This document shows, one piece after another, positions 3,932 through 53,102 of a stretch of DNA of 64,000 nucleotides. Location of the stretch: IMG/VR virus record IMGVR_UViG_3300029136_000219, positions 56,475 to 120,474 of that record; one strand, written 5' to 3'. The translations under genes and the position numbers were made by a program. The notes below the pieces were generated by a model. The model ran no database searches, was not told the DNA's origin, and saw nothing but the letters and a program-made list of their open reading frames with translations. Positions within the stretch are counted from its first letter, which is position 1. The number at the start of each line of letters is the position of its first letter. This DNA comes from a virus.

Positions 3932-3964
3932 TTACTTTAATATTATGTATGTGTGAGGAAAATT

Positions 3965-4426
3965 ATGATAGATATATTATTTAAAGGAAAGACAACTGAT
4001 ACAAAAAGATGGATATATGGTTCTCTTGTTGTAGCAATCGTACATCAATGTAAACATTATTATATTACTTCCGGCAGAACCAACATTAATGACGGTAATA
4101 TTGATTTTGAAAAATTTGAGGTTATTCCTGAAACTGTAAGTCAGTTTACCGGTAAATATATTAATAACACTCGAATCTTTGATGGAGACATTTTAGAGTG
4201 GCGTGATGATAGTTGGGGAATCGCAAATGCTGCTGTAACAAGGACTGTTGTATCTTGGGATGAAAATAACTGCCGTTGGATACTAAAACATGACGGTAAG
4301 GACGAATGCATTTGCACATTCACTGAATATGATAAATCTGAGTGGGAAAATATGAATTTAATCGGAAATATTTATGATAACCCGGAATTGTTATTGGATT
4401 ATAACAAACAGGTTACTACCGTTTAA
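3965..4426 (+). CDS. YopX family protein (paralog 1)
   Basis: C-terminal IGNIYDNPELL signature of phage YopX. An alternative GTG start at 3953 is possible. Confidence 0.7.
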   Translation: MIDILFKGKTTDTKRWIYGSLVVAIVHQCKHYYITSGRTNINDGNIDFEKFEVIPETVSQFTGKYINNTRIFDGDILEWRDDSWGIANAAVTRTVVSWDENNCRWILKHDGKDECICTFTEYDKSEWENMNLIGNIYDNPELLLDYNKQVTTV

Positions 4427-46664: not shown

Positions 46665-46735
46665 ATTCTGCGAACTTTTTGCGAATATTGACGATTTTTT
46701 CAAATTTTTCTGAAATATTTGCGATTATATAATGT
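46665..46735 (+). promoter_or_regulatory. conserved promoter-like cassette
   Basis: TCTGCGAACTTTTTGCGAATATTG...GAAATATTTGCGATTATATAATGTAAGG. Confidence 0.5.
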
Positions 46736-46750
46736 AAGGAGAAAAAAGCA

Positions 46751-47371
46751 ATGGGATCAAGCTTTAATAAGTTCAAAATTGTTGATAAAGAAACAACAAT
46801 AGTTTACACACAAGATGTAAATGGAAACATCAATGGTAAATTCTATATTGATACTGAAGATTTGTCAAAAGTCCTTATGGTTAAATGTCGTATTTATAAC
46901 GGCAGAGTAATCTACGACCATCCGGCTGAGGATGGAAAATGTAGGGGGCAAAGACAACTTAGTAGATACATTATGGGTATTGCCGAAGATTACGATGTCA
47001 ATGACAGAAAAAGCTCAGTAGTTGTGGACCATATAGACCACAATCCTTTTAACAATAAAAAATCAAATTTAAGAATTATTACATATAAAGAAAACTTAAA
47101 AAATAGAACAAATGCAAATGATTGTGAATTTTTTAAAGGCATAGCTTTTCGTAATAATTATTATATTGTGAGTATCTGTTACAAGAAAAATTCTGTTTAT
47201 TTAGGACAATACAAAAAATTTCATGAGGCTCTTTTTGCTCGTTTTTTTGCGGAAAAAATGATTTTCGGTGAAGTTAAACAAATGGAAAGACCTACAAAAT
47301 TGAGTGAAGATAGAGAAAAGGAAATAGCTAATAAGGTTATTGCCAAGGTTGTGCTCCTCCAAACTGCCTGA
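46751..47371 (+). CDS. HNH homing-type endonuclease
   Basis: VVVDHIDHNPFNNKKSNLRII gives an HNH motif (DH...N...N). Confidence 0.65.
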   Translation: MGSSFNKFKIVDKETTIVYTQDVNGNINGKFYIDTEDLSKVLMVKCRIYNGRVIYDHPAEDGKCRGQRQLSRYIMGIAEDYDVNDRKSSVVVDHIDHNPFNNKKSNLRIITYKENLKNRTNANDCEFFKGIAFRNNYYIVSICYKKNSVYLGQYKKFHEALFARFFAEKMIFGEVKQMERPTKLSEDREKEIANKVIAKVVLLQTA

Positions 47372-47382
47372 AATTGTTAATG

Positions 47383-47444
47383 TTTTGTAAACACTGAGAA
47401 AAATCACAAATTTTTTTGAAATATTCGCGATTTATATAATGTAA
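47383..47444 (+). promoter_or_regulatory. conserved promoter-like cassette
   Basis: TTTGTAAACACTGAG...GAAATATTCGCGATTTATATAATGTAAGG, directly upstream of the TnpB/Cas12-like gene. Confidence 0.5.
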
Positions 47445-47467
47445 GGCGGTAAAAAGGAGGAATTACT

Positions 47468-49264
47468 GTGCCGGAAAAAGAAAAAAAGAATCAATATATT
47501 TTATCAATGGGCTTAGAAATTAATGCTGATGATAAAATTTATCTTGATAAGTATTTTGAATTTGTAAGAAAAATGCAAAATTATTTTATTTCTTATCAGC
47601 TAAAAAAATATAACAAAATGGTAAGAGAAACAAATTATCAAGAATTAAAAATTCAAATTGATAATATTGATAAAGCTATTTCTAATTTTTACAGACAAAT
47701 TATAAACCGTCAAAAAGTTATTGATGAAGGTGAAATATCTAAATGTGAAATCACTTCATACAAGAATGAAATTGCAGAATTGAAAAAAGATATTTCTTCT
47801 TTGAAAAAAGAAAAATCAAAATATCAAAAGCAAATTTATGAACTTTTGAAAGAATACAGGTTTAGTGATTTAAGTTTTAAATCCGATGTAGCTATATTTG
47901 ACAAAATTGATTATTTCACAAAACCTTGTTACAAAACAAAGAATGGTAAGCTTGCAAGAGATAAAAATGGTAACAAAATTCCTATTCTCGATGAAAACGG
48001 AAATGTAAAAAGAAAATGTTTTGTCTCTTCATTAGTGAGAAAATATTCTATTGCTGCACCGATTTGGTCAGCATTTGATAAAAAGTTCAAGGAAAACGGT
48101 GCAGTCCATTTTAAAAGCTTTTTTAATAAAAAATCAGTCAGCTCTATTGCATTCCCAGTTGGTAATTCTTTCAAAGGTAACAATGCTTTTGTTATTCCTT
48201 CTGTAGGCAAAATAATTAAATATAAAATACCAAGAACCCAATACGAAAAGGAAGTATTTAACAAAGAAAATGTTAATGTTATCCGAATTAAAAGGATTTG
48301 GAAGAATACAAAATACAGCTATTCGGTTCAGTTTACTATAACAGGTGAACCTGTGTTAAGGAAAGACAAAGATAATTGTGTCAAACATCCACTTGGCACT
48401 GGTGTAGCAGGTGTAGGTATAAGTTTAAATGAATGTTGGATTTGCACTGAGAACACATTAAAAAGAGTTTCTTTAGTTCCACCTGATGCTTATGAGTTTG
48501 ATAATGAAATAAAACAAATTGAAAGAGCAATGGATAGAAGTAAGCGTGCTACTAATCCAAATAATTTTGATGAAAAGGGTAGGGCAAAGAGCTTTTACGA
48601 AACGCCTGACCCTGATAACCCAGACAAAATCATCAAGTCAAAGCTCCGTTGGAGATTTTCAAAGCATTACAGAAAACTAAGTCAAAGAAAAGCTTATTTG
48701 GAAGGTATTAATGCCAGAAAGCGTAAGCTTTATGACGAAAACCTTGTGAATGAATTATTGCTGTATTTCAATGAAATCAATATTCAAAAGAATGATTTCA
48801 AGAGAACTCAAATGAGTAAACAAAAAGTCGGTGACAGCGCCGATGAAAAGAAAAAGGCTGGTTTACATATTAAAGAAGCATCACCTTCACAGTTCGTTGA
48901 AATTCTTAAAAGAAAAGTCATCAGCCACGGTGGTAAAGTAAATATCATTACTAAAAAGGAATGTCAAGCAACAGAATTCAATCATATAGACGGTAAGTTC
49001 TATGATATGCCTGTTTCTAACAGGTGGTTTGGTATGAGTGATGGTAATGTTCTTCAAAGAGATGCTCATACGGCTTTTAATCTATTGACACTTAATGATA
49101 TAGAAAAAAGCAACAAACTTTATGATGACTTTTTAAAACAACATTCTGCCGAACTTGAAAAGTTTAATGTTGTTGCACCTGAACAGGTAAATATGGTTAC
49201 TTGCAGTCAGGCAAAAGAAAAAAGAAAGTCAGCAAGAAAAACAAAAAAGAAAAATATTGCATGA
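47468..49264 (+). CDS. TnpB/Cas12-like RuvC-fold protein (candidate compact type V effector)
   Basis: GTG after AAAGGAGG. C-terminal QRDAHTAFNLL matches the RuvC-III RDxNAAxNI motif. GVGISLNE occupies the RuvC-I GIDLG position, and NELLLYFNEINIQKND the RuvC-II position. Beta-rich WED-like block (NTKYSYSVQFTITGE). N-terminal coiled-coil. Degenerate zinc-finger region. Confidence 0.55.
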   Translation: MPEKEKKNQYILSMGLEINADDKIYLDKYFEFVRKMQNYFISYQLKKYNKMVRETNYQELKIQIDNIDKAISNFYRQIINRQKVIDEGEISKCEITSYKNEIAELKKDISSLKKEKSKYQKQIYELLKEYRFSDLSFKSDVAIFDKIDYFTKPCYKTKNGKLARDKNGNKIPILDENGNVKRKCFVSSLVRKYSIAAPIWSAFDKKFKENGAVHFKSFFNKKSVSSIAFPVGNSFKGNNAFVIPSVGKIIKYKIPRTQYEKEVFNKENVNVIRIKRIWKNTKYSYSVQFTITGEPVLRKDKDNCVKHPLGTGVAGVGISLNECWICTENTLKRVSLVPPDAYEFDNEIKQIERAMDRSKRATNPNNFDEKGRAKSFYETPDPDNPDKIIKSKLRWRFSKHYRKLSQRKAYLEGINARKRKLYDENLVNELLLYFNEINIQKNDFKRTQMSKQKVGDSADEKKKAGLHIKEASPSQFVEILKRKVISHGGKVNIITKKECQATEFNHIDGKFYDMPVSNRWFGMSDGNVLQRDAHTAFNLLTLNDIEKSNKLYDDFLKQHSAELEKFNVVAPEQVNMVTCSQAKEKRKSARKTKKKNIA

Positions 49265-49280
49265 CAGCAATGTTGATATA

Positions 49281-49427
49281 GGTAGACTTAGCTACCTAAA
49301 ACTACCGGTAAACGCATTTTTGTGTTTGGTAGTAATGAAATAATTAAGGTTAAGCAGTTAGTTGGTTTGCGTTTGTCAGAACTTAATAGAGCTGTTTGAC
49401 AAGATTATACAGTGTAATTAATTTGAG
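49281..49427 (+). promoter_or_regulatory. conserved structured leader 1 (~147 nt) with sigma70-like promoter TTGACA-17-TAATTT abutting the first repeat
   Basis: Three copies (49281, 50588, 51416) about 90% identical. Hairpin GGTAGacttagCTACC, which shows compensatory change to GGCTG/CAGCC in copy 2. Confidence 0.6.
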
Positions 49428-49529
49428 GTTTTGGTACTGTAGTAGATTACACTACTCTAAAAGAAATATATTGGGAGTGTCTGAAAAATCCATGTTTTGG
49501 TACTGTAGTAAATTACACTACTCTAATTA
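49428..49529 (+). CRISPR. mini CRISPR array 1 (2 repeats, 1 spacer)
   Basis: 36-bp repeat GTTTTGGTACTGTAGTAGATTACACTACTCTAAAAG. 30-bp spacer AAATATATTGGGAGTGTCTGAAAAATCCAT. Second repeat is degenerate at its 3-prime end. Confidence 0.7.
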
Positions 49530-49578
49530 CACCATTTGGTGTGTTTTATATAAAAAATAATTTAGGAGGAAAAAATAT

Positions 49579-49680
49579 ATGTCATTCAATATGGTTATGG
49601 TTATTATTTGTGCTGTAATTCTTGTTGCTTGCATTATTGCTCTTATTGTAAGAGGCATTAAGAGTAAGCGCAATAAGTAA
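49579..49680 (+). CDS. tiny membrane peptide (33 aa)
   Basis: TAGGAGGA RBS. MSFNMVMVIICAVILVACIIALIVRGIKSKRNK. Paralog at 53224. Confidence 0.4.
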   Translation: MSFNMVMVIICAVILVACIIALIVRGIKSKRNK

Positions 49681-49735
49681 TTAAGTACAAATACAGCATC
49701 CCCGGATACGCTGATTAAACATTATCCGGGAATGT

Positions 49736-49823
49736 GACAATGTAGTTTAACGGTAAAACACAAAAGTTGTTTTTTTGATCCTCCTTCGACTTTTGGATGT
49801 AAGTTCAAATCTTACCATTGCCA
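49736..49823 (+). tRNA. atypical tRNA-like gene (class-II-like long variable arm, anticodon loop GTTGTTT, no encoded CCA)
   Basis: Acceptor stem GACAATG/CATTGCC with one mismatch. D-stem GTTT/AAAC. Anticodon stem CAAAA/TTTTG. Variable arm ATCC...GGAT. T-arm GTAAG-TTCAAAT-CTTAC. Anticodon identity ambiguous. Confidence 0.4.
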
Positions 49824-49832
49824 ATAAGATAT

Positions 49833-49915
49833 GCTGATGTGATGGAATGGCAGACAGAAGAGACTTAAAATCTCTTGGTGGAAACATCGTGTGAGTTCGA
49901 CTCTCACCATCAGCA
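49833..49915 (+). tRNA. tRNA-Leu(TAA)
   Basis: Acceptor GCTGATG/CATCAGC. Anticodon stem-loop AGAGA-CTTAAAA-TCTCT. Long variable arm. T-arm GTGAG-TTCGACT-CTCAC. CCA encoded. Confidence 0.75.
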
Positions 49916-50266
49916 CCACTGCAGGGCCCAAGTGAAAGGTCTAAGAAGTTTCACAACGGTATAAGATATTTCTTGGCTGGTTTTTGCCGTGTGCTGGAAT
50001 GCACTGAATCAATAACCTTACAGACAGTATCAAAAAAGTTAGGACTTTTTGTATTGGAAGGGTTGCTGACCTTTCCGTAGTTTTTCTAATGATTTAAAGG
50101 AAGTTAAGCAAAAGTGTACATATTACTTTACTGAATTTAATCACCGTATTAACACGCTGATAGACAGTATTTCTCCCACAATTCGGGAAGTAAAGAGATC
50201 TATTGGTTGAAAGTAAATGGATACGGCAGAACAGTGCACATCTGCCGTATCACGATTATTAAATAC

Positions 50267-50338
50267 GCAGATATGATGTAATCGGTAGCATACAACTCTT
50301 CCACAGTTGGTGTGCGAGTTCAAACCTCGTTATCTGCT
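50267..50338 (+). tRNA. tRNA-Gly(TCC)
   Basis: Acceptor GCAGATA/TATCTGC. Anticodon stem-loop CAACT-CTTCCAC-AGTTG. T-arm GCGAG-TTCAAAC-CTCGT. CCA encoded. Confidence 0.75.
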
Positions 50339-50347
50339 CCAAAATAT

Positions 50348-50420
50348 TCTCCATTAGTTCAGAAGGTAGAACGGTAGACTGTTAATCTATATGTCATTGG
50401 TTCAAATCCAATATGGAGAG
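50348..50420 (+). tRNA. tRNA-Asn(GTT)
   Basis: Acceptor TCTCCAT/ATGGAGA. Anticodon loop CTGTTAA. T-arm ATTGG-TTCAAAT-CCAAT. CCA encoded. Confidence 0.75.
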
Positions 50421-50426
50421 CCAAAC

Positions 50427-50499
50427 GGACCGTTAGCTTAGTAGGTAAAGCAACCGGCTCATAACCGGTAAACCATGGGTTCAAATCCTATACGGTCCA
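50427..50499 (+). tRNA. tRNA-Met(CAT), elongator-type (or Ile-lysidine)
   Basis: Acceptor GGACCGT/ACGGTCC with base-paired 1:72. Anticodon stem-loop ACCGG-CTCATAA-CCGGT. CCA encoded. Confidence 0.75.
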
Positions 50500-50505
50500 C
50501 CATAT

Positions 50506-50578
50506 GTGTCATTAGCTCAGTAGGTAGAGCAACAGACTTTTAATTTGCAGGTCAAGGGTTCAATTCCCTTATGACACA
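50506..50578 (+). tRNA. tRNA-Lys(TTT)
   Basis: Acceptor GTGTCAT/ATGACAC. D-arm GCTCAGTAGGTAGAGC. Anticodon loop CTTTTAA. T-arm AAGGG-TTCAATT-CCCTT. CCA encoded. Confidence 0.75.
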
Positions 50579-50587
50579 CCACTTAAT

Positions 50588-50736
50588 AGGGCTGAATTAG
50601 CAGCCTGATGCTACTGGTAAACACATTTTTGTGTTTGGTAGTAATGAAATAATCAAGGTTAAGCAGTTAGTTGGTTTGCATTTGTCAGAACTCAATAGAG
50701 CTGCTTAACAAGATTATATAGTGTAATTAATTTGAG
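50588..50736 (+). promoter_or_regulatory. conserved structured leader 2 with promoter TTAACA-17-TAATTT
   Basis: See leader 1. Hairpin GGCTGaattagCAGCC. Second stem AAACAC/GTGTTT, where copy 1 has a G-U wobble. Confidence 0.6.
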
Positions 50737-50904
50737 GTTTTTGTACTGTAGTAAATTACACTACTCTAAAAGCGCCGCAGAATTGCTTCCACGGTGGTCT
50801 TTGTTTTGGTACTGTAGTAAATTACACTACTCTAAAAGGACAGCTACAGTTTTAGGCACGGTTTTCTTGTTTTTGTACTGTAGTAAATTACACTACTCTT
50901 AACG
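50737..50904 (+). CRISPR. mini CRISPR array 2 (3 repeats, 2 spacers)
   Basis: Repeats GTTTTTGTACTGTAGTAAATTACACTACTCTAAAAG, GTTTTGGTACTGTAGTAAATTACACTACTCTAAAAG and a degenerate terminal repeat ...CTCTTAACG. Spacers CGCCGCAGAATTGCTTCCACGGTGGTCTTT and GACAGCTACAGTTTTAGGCACGGTTTTCTT (30 bp each). Confidence 0.75.
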
Positions 50905-50967
50905 TTGTTTGTTTTGAGAAATGCAAGACAAAGAGTAGTAAATTTCATTTAAAAGAGGAAAAAATAA

Positions 50968-51408
50968 ATGCATTTAGATACAGCAGTAATATTTTTTATT
51001 GGTGTTCCTGTATATTTGCTAATGGCATTATTATCAAGAAAATTTGCGTATGTTGAAGCATCAATTGGATTGCTAATATGTTCAATTGTTAGCCTATTTA
51101 CAGAAAACACAGGAATAATTTGTTTGGTGATATATTTTGGACCATTCATTGTTTCAGCTATTATGAAACCAATAGAAAATAGGATAAATAAAAAGAAACA
51201 AGAAAAAGAATTGCATAAATTTGCGGATATGCAAAAAGGAAAGGTGGGTGTTATCCATGAATTAGAAGATGGCAACTTATATTTATTCCTCTCAGGTAGA
51301 TATTGGCAAATATCCGAACAGTCGAGAATTAAATATAATTGTGAGGAACAAGATGCCGTTAAGGTATTAGATATTAATACAGATAGACTTATCGTTAAGC
51401 CTATTTAG
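50968..51408 (+). CDS. membrane protein
   Basis: AAGAGGAAAAAA RBS. Three TM helices. Confidence 0.55.
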   Translation: MHLDTAVIFFIGVPVYLLMALLSRKFAYVEASIGLLICSIVSLFTENTGIICLVIYFGPFIVSAIMKPIENRINKKKQEKELHKFADMQKGKVGVIHELEDGNLYLFLSGRYWQISEQSRIKYNCEEQDAVKVLDINTDRLIVKPI

Positions 51409-51415
51409 TATATAT

Positions 51416-51563
51416 GGGTAGACTTAGCTACCTGAAACTACCGGTAAACGCATTTTTGTGCTTGGTAGTAATGAAATAATCGAGATTAAGCAGTTAGTTG
51501 GTTTGCATTCGTCAGAACTTAATAGAGCTGTTTGATAAGATTATGTAGTCGTAATAATTTGAG
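51416..51563 (+). promoter_or_regulatory. conserved structured leader 3 with promoter TTGATA-17-TAATTT
   Basis: See leader 1. Coordinates +/-1. Confidence 0.55.
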
Positions 51564-51727
51564 GTTTTAGAACCATATATAACTACACTACTCTAAAAGG
51601 ACGAGGCTTATGTTGATTTCGGCGGCACGGTTTTAGAACCATATATAACTACACTACTCTAAAAGGTCTGAGATAGTTGCAACAATAAAAAACTTTGGAA
51701 CTGTATTATATTACACTATTTTTTAAA
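51564..51727 (+). CRISPR. mini CRISPR array 3 (2 good repeats plus a degenerate third, 2 spacers)
   Basis: Repeat GTTTTAGAACCATATATAACTACACTACTCTAAAAG. Its 3-prime 18 nt are shared with arrays 1 and 2; the 5-prime part is divergent. Spacers GACGAGGCTTATGTTGATTTCGGCGGCACG and GTCTGAGATAGTTGCAACAATAAAAAACTT. Coordinates +/-1. Confidence 0.65.
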
Positions 51728-51744
51728 AAAAGGAGATAAAAATT

Positions 51745-52149
51745 ATGCTAAAAATTGCAAAACCAAACTTCTTCGTAAATGAAGAAAAGAGAACAATCGT
51801 TGGTAAGTTGATTATGCCGGATGATAAAGAATTATTTGATGTTGCTCAATTAGTTGACGAGGTTGACGAAGATTTCTGTTATGAAAATCTTAAAAATTCC
51901 TATGACTTTACTATTTTTGAAGCAAAGGCAAAGTGCTGCCCCGAAGACAAGTGGGATGTAGAAAAAGGAAAGGCCATTGTTAATGAACGATTGGGTAAAA
52001 TGATTATTCAAAGAGTTAAACGTCAGGCTAAAGAAGAAAGAACAAAAATTATTAATCGTATCAGTGAACTCGATGAAATCATAAAGCATTGTGATAAAAG
52101 CATCGACAATTCAAACAAACATATTGATAAAATTATCAAGGGGGAATAA
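51745..52149 (+). CDS. hypothetical protein
   Basis: AAGGAGATAA RBS. Confidence 0.55.
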   Translation: MLKIAKPNFFVNEEKRTIVGKLIMPDDKELFDVAQLVDEVDEDFCYENLKNSYDFTIFEAKAKCCPEDKWDVEKGKAIVNERLGKMIIQRVKRQAKEERTKIINRISELDEIIKHCDKSIDNSNKHIDKIIKGE

Positions 52150-52151
52150 TT

Positions 52152-53102
52152 ATGAGTTTAGCTAAGAAAGTATTATCGGTTGGTATTGCTTCTATTATGG
52201 CAATGTCAGCTATTGGAGTTGGCACTACTGCACTTGCCGAACCAATTAATTCTGTTCAGTCGGCTACTTCAATTTCACTAAATGAGAGTAAAACTGTGAC
52301 CTTGAAATATGGTGATATTGGTAATTATGATGACATCTCGGAAGATACTGTTTACTATAAGTTTACTGCTCCGACCACTAATTATTATGAATTTACCTTA
52401 ACAGGTTACAAGACAAGAATTGATAATAATGACCCAAGTGCTTATATTGATATAACAGATGAATATGGCGTCAATGCATCGTCAAGTGGGGGCTTATTTA
52501 ATCCGTATTTTAATGATGTAAAATCAATTGCCTATTTGGAACAAGGAAAGTCATATATAATCAATGTCTTTTACTCACCAATTGGTACTCAAGAGTACAA
52601 TTCAAAGGACTATGCCGAAACAGCAATTACACTAACTGTTTCTCCACATACACATGACATTACAAGTGTCGTTAATGACGGATATACAGACTACACCTGC
52701 AAGCGTTGCAATTATTCATATACCGAATTTAAACCGTTACCGACATCTCCTTCACAGCCTACACAGGCTCCTACAAGCACTGTTACTCCAATAACAGCAA
52801 GTAAGGTATCAAAGCCAAAAAAGACTAAAATTAAAAAGGTAAAGGCTGCTAAGAAGGCATTGGCAGTTACTTGGAATAAAGTATCCGGCGTAAAAGGTTA
52901 TCAAGTACAGGCTGCAACAGACAAAAAGTTCAAAAAGAACAAGAAAACTGTTACAATCAAGAAGCAAAAAACTACTAAGACAACCGTAAAGAAACTTAAA
53001 GCTAAGAAAAAGTATTACGTAAGAGTAAGAACTTACAAGACCATAAATGGAAAAAAGGTTTACTCGGCTTGGTCAAGTGTAAAAAATGTAAAAACTAAAT
53101 AG
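52152..53102 (+). CDS. secreted protein with C-terminal K-rich FN3 module
   Basis: Signal peptide. C-terminus KGYQVQAATDKKF...YYVRVRTYKTINGKKVYSAWS parallels the LRR protein tail. Confidence 0.65.
   Translation: MSLAKKVLSVGIASIMAMSAIGVGTTALAEPINSVQSATSISLNESKTVTLKYGDIGNYDDISEDTVYYKFTAPTTNYYEFTLTGYKTRIDNNDPSAYIDITDEYGVNASSSGGLFNPYFNDVKSIAYLEQGKSYIINVFYSPIGTQEYNSKDYAETAITLTVSPHTHDITSVVNDGYTDYTCKRCNYSYTEFKPLPTSPSQPTQAPTSTVTPITASKVSKPKKTKIKKVKAAKKALAVTWNKVSGVKGYQVQAATDKKFKKNKKTVTIKKQKTTKTTVKKLKAKKKYYVRVRTYKTINGKKVYSAWSSVKNVKTK

What the first reader, a model, noticed from the sequence alone, without database searches (positions are those of the whole stretch)
47383..51727. Mobile-element-borne compact type V-like CRISPR locus: 598-aa TnpB/Cas12-like protein plus three leader/mini-array units interleaved with tRNAs
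A 598-aa protein carries a C-terminal RuvC-III-like motif (QRDAHTAFNLL, compare RDxNAAxNI), a GIDLG-position block (GVGISLNE), a RuvC-II-position Glu block, and a WED-like beta region. This is the TnpB/Cas12 architecture, at a size like Cas12f, Cas12j or Cas12-lambda. It is followed within 4.5 kb by three mini CRISPR arrays on the same strand. Repeats are 36 bp and the five spacers are unique and 30 bp long. Terminal repeats are degenerate at the leader-distal end. Each array is preceded by a conserved ~147-nt leader. No cas1, cas2 or cas4 genes are present in the window. This matches the 'adaptation-less mini-array plus compact single effector' pattern reported for huge phages (CasPhi/Cas12j-like). 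The protein is smaller than those and shows no obvious zinc finger, so it could be a new compact subtype or a TnpB-to-Cas12 intermediate.
Basis: partly seen in the sequence, partly recalled or inferred. Interest (0 to 1): 0.92.

Follow-up and report, generated by a model that had tools for sequence, protein, structure and literature searches.

The report
Nuclease-dead TnpB-like protein with CRISPR mini-arrays
A large phage-like mobile element carries a Cas12/TnpB-type protein that has lost its DNA-cutting residues, next to three small but actively changing CRISPR arrays, each headed by a folded RNA, and at least one spacer targets rival gut phages; this looks like a natural RNA-guided DNA binder or silencer rather than a cutter.

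Summary
ORF 47468-49264 encodes a 598-aa protein with a TnpB/Cas12 fold. Three units follow on the same strand, each a ~150-nt conserved block plus 36-nt repeats spaced 66 nt apart.

The interpretation needs three corrections.

1. The protein lacks two of the three RuvC carboxylates (D->G317, E->Q440; D532 kept). All its relatives of at least 54% identity lack them too, and the gene is under purifying selection. It is therefore probably nuclease-dead.
2. The "leader" is a + strand structured RNA: 45 pairs, 99.8% of cells paired, 3 compensatory pairs. It resembles an omega-RNA or tracrRNA scaffold more than a plain leader.
3. The leader-repeat junction (ATTTGAG|GTTTT, 36/30 geometry) is that of type II-A arrays, not of any known type V system.

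The arrays are genuine. In six related genomes the leader-proximal spacers differ while a distal one is fixed. One spacer matches 22 gut phage contigs at 28/30.

A distant nuclease-dead clade (~26% identity, Lachnospiraceae elements) has the same layout of gene, scaffold, ATTTGAC and GTTTTGG repeats. That supports a functional link between protein and arrays.

Best reading: a CRISPR-associated, TldR/Cas12m-like binder used in conflicts between mobile elements. Adaptation genes, PAM and activity remain untested.

The parts
47383..47454 (+). Promoter-like element upstream of the gene, duplicated upstream of the neighbouring HNH/AP2-like ORF (46677-46747)
   Evidence: families D4 and D9 (74% and 87% identity). 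Its function is inferred.
47468..49264 (+). 598-aa TnpB/Cas12-fold protein, predicted nuclease-dead (G317, Q440, D532). It has a coiled-coil insertion at about aa 55-130 and a beta insertion at about aa 150-185.
   Evidence: dN/dS is 0.09-0.25.
49280..49408 (+). Scaffold RNA, unit 1 (helices P1, P2 and long P3). It begins 16 nt after the stop codon.
   Evidence: 45 pairs, 99.8% of cells paired, many G-U pairs so the structure is + strand specific. Covariance model R1 scores 175.8 bits.
49409..49427 (+). Linker with a possible -10 box (TAATTT; the -35 TTGACA lies in the P3 3' strand). It ends in ATTTGAG, the type II-A group-1 leader-end motif.
   Evidence: Sequence. Motif from PMC5382924. The promoter is inferred; it was not picked up by the strict scan.
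49428..49529 (+). Array 1: repeat, 30-nt spacer, terminal repeat with a degenerate 3' end
   Evidence: The spacer differs in L026, L077 and L129.
49528..49553 (+). Intrinsic-terminator-like hairpin plus T run after array 1
49735..50581 (+). Six tRNA genes (Thr, Leu, Gly, Asn, Met, Lys). tRNA-Lys ends 7 nt before the first paired base of scaffold 2, so 3' tRNA processing could free the scaffold 5' end (inference).
50589..50736 (+). Scaffold RNA unit 2 plus linker ending in ATTTGAG
   Evidence: 180.6 bits
50737..50904 (+). Array 2: three repeats and two 30-nt spacers. Spacer 1 (50773-50802) matches 22 phage contigs at 28/30.
51416..51563 (+). Scaffold RNA unit 3 plus linker ending in ATTTGAG
   Evidence: 177.5 bits
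51564..51727 (+). Array 3, with a variant repeat (GTTTTAGAACCATATATAAC + the shared TACACTACTCTAAAAG). It holds one variable 30-nt spacer, one fixed 26-nt spacer and a very degenerate last repeat.

Best explanation
This is a CRISPR-associated derivative of an IS605-type TnpB that has lost DNA cleavage. It is carried by a large phage-like mobile element of the human gut.

Proposed mechanism, with each step marked:
- Each of the three units is transcribed on the + strand. The product is a ~130-nt folded scaffold, a short linker, and a repeat-spacer mini-array (fold shown; transcription inferred).
- Scaffold plus first repeat would form an omega-RNA-like guide whose variable 3' part is the leader-proximal, newest spacer. 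The conserved 3' 16 nt of the repeat (TACACTACTCTAAAAG) would serve as the handle next to the guide, in the type V orientation (inferred).
- The 598-aa protein binds this RNA and is directed to matching DNA of competing phages (one target family shown).
- Because RuvC-I Asp and RuvC-II Glu are replaced, it most likely acts by binding, blocking transcription or replication as Cas12m and TldR do, rather than by cutting (inferred). Recruitment of a separate nuclease is possible.
- New spacers are added at the leader-proximal end (polarity shown). No integrase is in the window, and the junction ATTTGAG|GTTTT with 36/30 geometry is that of type II-A arrays. The element therefore probably borrows a host, or distally encoded, type II-A-like Cas1-Cas2 machinery (inferred).
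For: Fold and homology:
- The AF2 model has mean pLDDT 82.6.
- Foldseek PDB top hits are TnpB, Cas12f, Cas12m2, Cas12p and LaTranC.
- phmmer gives E about 1e-24 to annotated TnpB.
- The closest active relative, P0010, sits next to a Y1 TnpA.

Dead RuvC:
- The family profile aligns its D/E/D columns to those of RdCas12n and LaTranC.
- The window protein has G317, Q440 and D532 at those columns.
- The positions fall on strand 313-318, strand 436-440 and the start of helix 531-541 of the model.
- The substitutions are shared by all relatives of at least 54% identity, while dN/dS is 0.09-0.25.

Real arrays:
- Six genomes carry 97-99.8% identical protein.
- They hold 17 distinct spacers. The leader-proximal spacer of array 3 is unique in 6/6 genomes and the distal one is fixed.

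Target:
- Spacer 50773-50802 matches 22 IMG/VR contigs at 28/30. Both mismatches (positions 23 and 26) lie outside a 20-nt 5' guide.
- The target contigs resemble Oscillospiraceae and Acutalibacteraceae phages.

Structured scaffold:
- Searches show 13 variable pairs with one unpaired cell and 0/500 shuffles reaching the observed score.

Link between protein and arrays:
- The scaffold starts 16 nt after the stop codon.
- The two repeat variants differ in their 5' halves but share the 3' 16 nt.
- No array with that 3' half exists in 185,579 species genomes.
- No tracrRNA-like anti-repeat occurs in the window.
- A distant dead clade (P0013, P0016, P0018; more than 100 clusters; E->N at RuvC-II, C-terminus missing) has the same order: gene, ~105-nt covarying scaffold, GATTTGAC, then 36-nt GTTTTGG repeats at a 66-nt period.
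- Of three array-less loci with 54-56% homologues, two carry a truncated or IS-disrupted gene.
Against: - No experiment or RNA data are available. Binding of the crRNA by this protein is inferred from synteny only.
- The 54-56% homologues in L001 and L025 have no array or scaffold nearby.
- L033 keeps arrays with unique spacers although its protein has an in-frame deletion of aa 182-366.
- No convincing scaffold:repeat (anti-repeat) pairing that covaries between unit 3 and units 1-2 was found.
- Spacers taken up by a type II-A machinery would carry 3' PAMs, not a 5' TAM. Only one protospacer has known flanks on both sides, so no PAM or TAM could be derived.
- A crude NJ tree does not join the two dead clades (2/100 bootstraps), so the recurrence may be convergent or due to transfer.
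- Only 64 kb of a ~190-kb element was visible. Cas genes may lie elsewhere.
Confidence: 0.55

Rival explanations
1. Orphan type II-A arrays. The three mini-arrays are decoy or hijacker arrays that use the host's Cas9, tracrRNA and Cas1-Cas2-Csn2. The dead TnpB-like protein is then an unrelated neighbour, for example a TldR-like regulator with its own guide.
For: - ATTTGAG|GTTTT is the group-1 type II-A leader-repeat junction.
- The 36-nt repeat and 30-nt spacer geometry fits type II-A.
- The first 11 nt of the unit-2 repeat equal the start of the S. thermophilus CRISPR1 repeat (sequence known to the literature).
- The terminal repeats of arrays 1 and 2 keep an intact 5' part, as type II crRNAs need.
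- Arrays persist with new spacers in L033, where the protein is deleted internally.
- 55% homologues occur without arrays.
Against: - The two repeat variants differ at about half of the first 20 nt, the part that must pair with a tracrRNA. They are identical in the 3' 16 nt, which type II trims away.
- No anti-repeat is present in the window.
- No bacterial species genome has arrays with this repeat 3' half.
- The mismatches at spacer positions 23 and 26 would fall in a Cas9 seed.
- The three known or reconstructed 3' flanks (GTTGGGT, ACCTGCT, TAGTACA) share no PAM.
- The same gene-scaffold-array order recurs beside a protein only 26% identical.
Confidence: 0.2
2. Repeat-directed guide. The scaffold is a complete omega-RNA whose guide is the start of the CRISPR repeat itself. 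The dead protein would then bind leader-repeat junctions, of host type II-A arrays or of its own. It could silence host CRISPR transcription (an RNA-guided anti-CRISPR), or mark the junction for spacer integration.
For: - In TnpB systems the guide is whatever follows the scaffold 3' end. Here that is always GTTTT(G/T/A)G..., preceded by a TAM-like TTGAG.
- The scaffold is duplicated in front of every array.
- Two repeat 5' variants would allow two array types to be recognised.
Against: - It does not explain the strict conservation of the repeat 3' half.
- It does not explain the rapid spacer turnover or the phage-matching spacer.
- The element's own three junctions would be perfect self-targets.
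- No host array with a matching repeat was found.
Confidence: 0.08
3. RNA-guided recruiter. The dead protein finds the target, and a partner enzyme cuts or modifies it. The partner could be the co-regulated HNH/AP2-like protein at 46751-47371 or a host factor bound by the coiled-coil insertion.
For: - The HNH_3 ORF lies directly upstream, is syntenic in all close relatives and shares the duplicated promoter element (D4 and D9).
- The protein has a ~75-aa coiled-coil insertion absent from active relatives.
Against: - HNH/AP2 ORFs are common free-standing homing endonucleases in phages.
- The neighbour is not conserved beside the 55% homologues or the P0013 clade.
Confidence: 0.1

Closest known systems
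TldR (TnpB-like nuclease-dead repressors; bioRxiv 10.1101/2023.11.30.569447 and 10.64898/2026.09.22.753285)
   Same: Both are TnpB-derived, with RuvC residues lost or the C-terminus truncated, and no transposon ends or TnpA. Some are phage-borne. The presumed action is RNA-guided binding without cleavage.
   Different: TldRs use one fixed guide aimed at a host promoter (fliC, oppA or csrA contexts), and no CRISPR array is described for them. Here the guides sit in mini-arrays that turn over between strains, and at least one targets other phages.
TranC, the transposon-CRISPR intermediates (for example LaTranC, PDB 9jfo; cited in 10.64898/2026.03.27.714800)
   Same: Both are close to IS605-type TnpB and are next to a CRISPR array plus an omega-RNA-derived scaffold. 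LaTranC is found by both fold and profile searches.
   Different: TranCs are active nucleases with a separate tracrRNA. Here RuvC-I and RuvC-II are inactivated. The scaffold is fused in cis upstream of each array and is present in three copies. No anti-repeat was demonstrable.
Cas12m (type V-M; PMC10442227) and Cas12k (type V-K)
   Same: Both are type V effectors that bind but do not cut dsDNA. Cas12m silences invading elements by binding. Cas12m2 is among the best structural matches (TM 0.49).
   Different: There is no sequence-level membership (no HMM hit). Cas12m keeps a RuvC site used for crRNA processing. Cas12k works with Tn7-like transposition genes, and none are present here.
Type II-A CRISPR arrays of the S. 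thermophilus CRISPR1 group (PMC5382924)
   Same: The leader end ATTTGAG followed by GTTT, 36-nt repeats, 30-nt spacers, polarised acquisition, and partly palindromic repeat ends.
   Different: The window has no cas9, cas1, cas2 or csn2 and no tracrRNA anti-repeat. The repeat 3' half is conserved rather than the 5' half. A 130-nt folded RNA precedes the junction.
Phage-encoded compact type V systems (CasPhi/Cas12j, Cas-lambda, Cas12p 'hacker', Cas12r of Thermus phages)
   Same: A mobile-element-borne single effector with small arrays, no adaptation module, and spacers against rival elements.
   Different: Those are active nucleases of unrelated Cas12 lineages. CasPhi is only a weak fold match (E 2e-4, TM 0.27).

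Membership tests
Type V CRISPR-Cas (Cas12) effector | Single large protein with a TnpB-like WED/REC/RuvC fold | tested here: met
   AF2 pLDDT 82.6. Foldseek finds TnpB at 2e-11 and Cas12f, Cas12m2 and Cas12p at about 1e-10 or below.
Type V CRISPR-Cas (Cas12) effector | Adjacent CRISPR array whose spacers vary between strains | tested here: met
   17 distinct spacers in six genomes.
Type V CRISPR-Cas (Cas12) effector | Intact RuvC D-E-D catalytic triad | tested here: not met
   G317, Q440, D532.
Type V CRISPR-Cas (Cas12) effector | Match to a profile of a named Cas12 subtype | tested here: not met
   No hit in Pfam, NCBIfam or PADLOC. Only the active relative P0010 weakly hits Cas12u2 and Cas12f.
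Type V CRISPR-Cas (Cas12) effector | crRNA with a repeat-derived 5' handle bound by the protein, and a 5' PAM | not testable with these tools
   Indirect only: the 3' 16 nt of the repeat is conserved between variants. One protospacer has the 5' flank TTT[A/T]G[A/G]C.
TldR | TnpB homologue with inactivated or truncated RuvC, under selection | tested here: met
TldR | No TnpA or transposon ends | tested here: met
   No Y1_Tnp among the 25 best-scoring of the 30 Pfam families hit by the 74 ORFs. The omega-RNA 3' end motif of active relatives (GGGAGTrTCAG) is absent downstream of the gene.
TldR | Single fixed guide complementary to a host promoter | tested here: not met
   The guides are array spacers that differ between strains. 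The one identified target is in other phages.
TranC | TnpB-lineage protein with a CRISPR array and a split omega-RNA (tracrRNA plus crRNA) | tested here: inconclusive
   Array and scaffold are present, but no covarying anti-repeat:repeat duplex was found.
TranC | RNA-guided DNA cleavage | tested here: not met
   Catalytic residues are missing. Activity itself was not assayed.
Type II-A CRISPR locus | ATTTGAG/GTTT leader-repeat junction with 36-nt repeat and 30-nt spacer | tested here: met
   Motif definition from PMC5382924.
Type II-A CRISPR locus | cas9, cas1, cas2 and csn2 next to the array | tested here: not met
   None in the 64-kb window, and no ORF exceeds 935 aa. The rest of the ~190-kb element was not visible.
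Type II-A CRISPR locus | tracrRNA with an anti-repeat to the repeat 5' part | tested here: not met
   RNAduplex scan of both strands of the window. The best hits, about -19 kcal/mol, lie inside coding regions.
   Foldseek to 7odf gives E 2e-4 and TM 0.27, far below TnpB and Cas12f. The RuvC is inactivated.

The most novel reading that the evidence does not exclude
A previously undescribed class of CRISPR system carried by mobile elements. A nuclease-dead TnpB derivative uses omega-RNA-like scaffolds fused in cis to short, adaptive arrays. The arrays are refilled by a borrowed type II-A-like integrase. The system would give phages and conjugative elements of gut Firmicutes a heritable, programmable 'CRISPRi' against rival elements. 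It would be a living intermediate that links TnpB, TldR and type V CRISPR, and a hybrid of type II adaptation with type V-like interference.
Probability: 0.35. Interest if true: 0.9.

Novelty: new variant of a known kind. Interest (0 to 1): 0.8.

Why it matters
- It would show that nuclease-dead TnpB descendants are not limited to fixed-guide gene regulators (TldR) or transposition helpers (Cas12k). They can also be coupled to adaptive spacer arrays.
- It would give a natural example of an omega-RNA scaffold physically joined to a CRISPR array, the step postulated between TnpB and Cas12.
- It would show a type V-like effector paired with type II-A-style array architecture.
- The family is widespread. 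The window protein's 90% cluster has 170 member sequences, and the sister-like clade has more than 100 clusters in Lachnospiraceae. All members with a source name are labelled only as hypothetical or helix-turn-helix proteins.
- In practice it offers compact (458-598 aa), naturally cleavage-free, RNA-guided DNA binders.

Tried and rejected
- Rfam search (E<=1) of 47000-52500 found only the tRNAs.
- A tracrRNA or anti-repeat search by RNAduplex found nothing consistent in the scaffolds or in the whole window. One marginal site lies at 4186-4203.
- Covariance model R1 of the scaffold found nothing near the 55% homologues or near active TnpB loci.
- Spacer targets:
  - BLAST of 9-11 spacers against INPHARED phages and PLSDB plasmids gave no meaningful hit.
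  - Four further 20-23-mer scans of IMG/VR gave only self hits or none.
  - There are no self-targets in the window or in related loci.
- The host-array search with the repeat 3' half in 185,579 species genomes returned six single chance matches.
Only L077, L129 and L139 were real.
- An NJ tree to test whether the two dead clades are sisters was unresolved (2/100). An earlier run timed out.
- dN/dS involving L003 was discarded because an indel broke the ungapped codon alignment.
- The CasPhi-like reading was rejected on fold scores.
- The 'dispersed repeat with invariant inserts' reading was rejected on spacer turnover.

Full report
**What is there**

ORF 47468-49264 (+, GTG start) encodes 598 aa. 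Three direct copies of a ~188-nt block follow on the same strand, at 49276, 50585 and 51412, and are 87-88% identical.

Each block ends in a 36-nt repeat that opens a short array with a 66-nt period.
- Array 1 (49428-49529) has one 30-nt spacer.
- Array 2 (50737-50904) has two.
- Array 3 (51564-51727) has one 30-nt spacer, one 26-nt spacer and a badly decayed last repeat.

Six tRNA genes lie between units 1 and 2 only. A terminator-like hairpin follows array 1.

**The protein**

Pfam, NCBIfam, PADLOC and a PDB sequence search give nothing specific for it.

phmmer against the large collections links it to proteins annotated as TnpB or transposase, at E about 1e-24. A search of 1.84 billion representatives finds 678 relatives, but only one cluster above 50% identity.

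An AlphaFold model built on 30 sequences is confident (mean pLDDT 82.6, pTM 0.70). Foldseek against the PDB returns the following:
- ISDra2 TnpB at 2e-11
- CnCas12f1
- Cas12m2 (TM 0.49)
- ISFba1 TnpB
- Cas12p
- LaTranC
- CasPhi only at 2e-4

The nearest active relative (P0010) sits beside a Y1 TnpA, so it is a normal IS200/IS605 TnpB. The TnpB/Cas12 fold is therefore confirmed.

**The nuclease is probably dead**

A profile of the family aligns its GxDxG, VE(T/D)M and QRDxxSAF columns with the RuvC-I, -II and -III motifs of RdCas12n and LaTranC. At those columns the window protein has Gly317 (GVGIS), Gln440 (NIQKND) and Asp532 (QRDAHTAF).

These residues sit on strand 313-318, on strand 436-440 and at the start of helix 531-541 of the model. 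That is the expected RuvC topology.

The 54-56% identical relatives also lack the Asp and Glu (GLGIG or LIVG; NIQKP or NIKKP), and one lacks the whole C-terminus. Among close relatives from other metagenomes, the five compared by dN/dS and the partial L077 and L139 copies are 97-99.8% identical in protein, and a further homologue (P0004) is 88-89% identical. dN/dS among those five is 0.09-0.25. The gene is therefore maintained, not a pseudogene.

The missing zinc finger is a trait of the whole surrounding TnpB clade.

**The arrays are genuine CRISPR arrays**

Related genomes were recovered from:
- IMG/VR: UViGs of 115 kb and 192 kb
- ENA, Logan and JGI: L033, L077, and L129 on a 198-kb contig

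In all of them the gene, the three scaffolds and the repeats are nearly identical, but the spacers are not.
- There are 17 distinct spacers in six genomes.
- The leader-proximal spacer of array 3 is different in all six.
- The distal 26-nt spacer is the same in all six.

This is polarised turnover at the leader end. It refutes the 'dispersed repeat with invariant inserts' alternative.

The spacer at 50773-50802 matches 22 other IMG/VR contigs (5.9-74 kb; five of the fetched stretches measure 50-53% GC) at 28/30. The protospacer lies on a terminator-like hairpin after a sigma-like gene. Those contigs resemble Oscillospiraceae and Acutalibacteraceae phages from human faeces.

Two leader-proximal spacers from different genomes overlap by 11 nt on opposite strands, so the same unknown target was sampled twice. 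The other spacers found no target.

**The 'leader' is a folded RNA**

Fourteen distinct copies of the unit align without gaps. RNAalifold predicts three helices: P1, P2 and a long P3.

On the named structure, 99.8% of 630 cells form standard pairs. Thirteen pairs vary and only one cell is unpaired. Three pairs change on both sides. No shuffle of 500 reaches the observed pairing or covariation, and slid controls fall to 28-49% paired.

Eleven of the 45 pairs are G-U in most sequences, so only the + strand RNA can form the structure. That is the strand of the gene and the arrays.

The fold starts 16 nt after the stop codon in unit 1 and 7 nt after tRNA-Lys in unit 2. A 19-nt linker follows. It holds a possible -10 box, TAATTT, placed 17 nt after TTGACA/TTAACA/TTGATA, and it ends in ATTTGAG.

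**Type II-A flavour**

ATTTGAG followed by GTTT is the group-1 type II-A leader-repeat junction, the group that includes S. thermophilus CRISPR1 (PMC5382924). The 36/30 geometry is also type II-A. The first 11 nt of the unit-2 repeat equal those of the CRISPR1 repeat (for the published sequence).

No cas1, cas2, cas9 or csn2 Pfam hit appears among the 25 best-scoring of the 30 families hit by the 74 + strand ORFs of the window. The window's other matches are phage-like families, 43 PHROGs in all.

No tracrRNA-like anti-repeat is found anywhere in the window. No array with the repeat's 3' half exists in 185,579 species genomes.

**Is the protein linked to the arrays?**

Four arguments favour a link.
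1. *Position.* The scaffold follows the gene as an omega-RNA does.
2. *Repeat conservation.* The two repeat variants differ at about half of the first 20 nt. They share the last 16 nt (TACACTACTCTAAAAG), the part that flanks the guide in type V crRNAs and is trimmed away in type II.
3. *Recurrence in a distant clade.* This is the strongest point.
   - Members: P0013, P0016 and P0018, 458-465 aa, about 26-28% identical to the window protein. More than 100 clusters are known, including Butyrivibrio isolates.
   - They are also nuclease-dead: Tyr at the RuvC-I column, Asn for the RuvC-II Glu, and no C-terminal RuvC-III region.
   - In the one contig that extends far enough (L180), the stop codon is followed by a ~105-nt hairpin-rich segment, then GATTTGAC, then 36-nt GTTTTGG repeats at a 66/63-nt period.
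   - The other two contigs (L178 and L181) end inside the first repeat.
   - Across just three sequences, 11 of 38 predicted pairs show compensatory changes. These include a hairpin inside the repeat and a stem that uses the GGATT of the junction.
   - The repeats of the two clades are about 60-64% identical without gaps and share AAATTACAC at positions 17-25. This is my reading.
4. *Decay where arrays are absent.* Of three array-less loci with 54-56% homologues, one gene is C-terminally truncated and one is split by an IS605.

Four points count against a link.
- The full-length 55% homologue in L001 has no array or scaffold within 2.2 kb.
- L033 keeps arrays with new spacers despite an internal in-frame deletion in the protein.
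- No covarying anti-repeat pairing was found.
- A crude NJ tree does not unite the two dead clades.

**Most likely mechanism (inference)**

The scaffold, the first repeat and the newest spacer form an omega-RNA-like single guide. This would explain why the element carries three short scaffold-headed arrays instead of one long array. A new spacer always enters directly behind the scaffold plus first repeat.

The protein binds this RNA and matching DNA of rival phages. Lacking two RuvC carboxylates, it would interfere by occupancy, as Cas12m and TldR do, or by recruiting a partner.

The two mismatches to the known protospacers lie at positions 23 and 26. That is outside a 20-nt guide read from the 5' end, but inside a Cas9 seed.

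Spacer uptake presumably relies on a type II-A-like Cas1-Cas2 machinery. It could be supplied by the host or encoded outside the window.

**Rivals**

- *Orphan type II-A arrays served by host Cas9 (0.2).* This explains the junction motif and the L033 variant. It does not explain the pattern of repeat conservation, the missing anti-repeat, the lack of a shared 3' PAM in three flanks, or the recurrence beside a distant protein.
- *A scaffold whose guide is the repeat itself, directing the dead protein to leader-repeat junctions (0.08).*
- *A recruiter model with the syntenic HNH/AP2-like neighbour (0.1).*

**Comparison and novelty**

The system combines traits of four known kinds.
- TldR: a dead TnpB, but with fixed guides.
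- TranC: TnpB plus an array and a split omega-RNA, but active.
- Cas12m and Cas12k: non-cutting type V effectors, but unrelated in sequence.
- Type II-A arrays: the junction and geometry, but no Cas9 or tracrRNA.

It fails at least one defining feature of each. I rate it a new variant of a known kind, namely type V-like, TnpB-derived, RNA-guided systems.

**Limits**

- Only 64 kb of a ~190-kb element was visible.
- Only one spacer has a known target.
- There is no RNA or biochemical evidence.
- The wider clade is represented by only three short contigs.

Noticed in passing
window 46677-46747 and 47383-47454: A ~70-nt element (TTTTG..ATTT..GAAATATT.GCGATT + TTATATAATGTAAGG) is duplicated upstream of the HNH/AP2-like ORF 46751-47371 and of the TnpB-like ORF. 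It may be a shared phage promoter or operator that co-regulates the two genes.
   Followed up: partly
window 4186-4203 (+), inside ORF 3953-4426: This stretch is complementary to the conserved 3' half of the CRISPR repeat (16 of 17 pairs, including 2 G-U; -18.3 kcal/mol, about 7 SD from the window mean). My rough estimate of the chance probability is 0.02-0.05. It could be a distal anti-repeat or a coincidence.
   Followed up: no
L035 1597-3371: A 55% homologue of the protein (P0008, 443 aa) is truncated by an inserted IS200/IS605 element (Y1 TnpA plus TnpB, on the opposite strand). A dead TnpB descendant has been disrupted by a live one.
   Followed up: partly
L033 10001-11218; L034 3877 (equivalent to window 49190-52941): There are two structural variants of the locus. 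One is an in-frame deletion of aa 182-366, between the short repeats DENGNVK and DEKGRAK. The other is a 3.75-kb deletion that removes all three arrays, the tRNAs and three ORFs. Either may be real or an assembly artefact.
   Followed up: partly
L026 14067-14096 and L077 (minus strand), array 3 spacer 1: Two leader-proximal spacers from different genomes overlap by 11 nt on opposite strands (ACACCAAGAGT). This implies repeated sampling of one unidentified target region.
   Followed up: partly
L129 7376-7405 and L033 11484-11513: In these genomes array 1 ends with an intact repeat followed directly by unique sequence (GTTTAAAAAGGTTAATAG...) and a terminator. The first 12 nt equal those of an array-2 spacer in L026. 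This would be a usable guide only in the repeat-then-spacer (type V) orientation.
   Followed up: no
window 49735-49824 and 49919-50266: tRNA-Thr(TGT) is unusually long at 90 nt, and ARAGORN calls it tRNA-??? in L026. A 347-nt gap between tRNA-Leu and tRNA-Gly has a terminator-like hairpin (50055-50077), no ORF and no Rfam hit.
   Followed up: no
L020 3160-3200, L179 2120-2155, L182 1660-1694: The active TnpB relatives share a conserved omega-RNA 3' end (GAACCC-hairpin-GGGAGTrTCAG). It is absent from both nuclease-dead, array-associated clades.
   Followed up: partly
cluster of the window protein: The exact protein occurs on contigs of up to 505 kb, and cluster members on contigs of up to 849 kb. 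These are much longer than the 115-198-kb viral contigs. Some copies may therefore be integrated in a chromosome, or the element may be larger than assumed.
   Followed up: no
window 49580-49681: A 33-aa hydrophobic ORF (MSFNMVMVIIICAVILVACIIALIVRGIKSKRNK) with a good Shine-Dalgarno sequence sits directly after array 1. It is conserved in L033 and L129.
   Followed up: no
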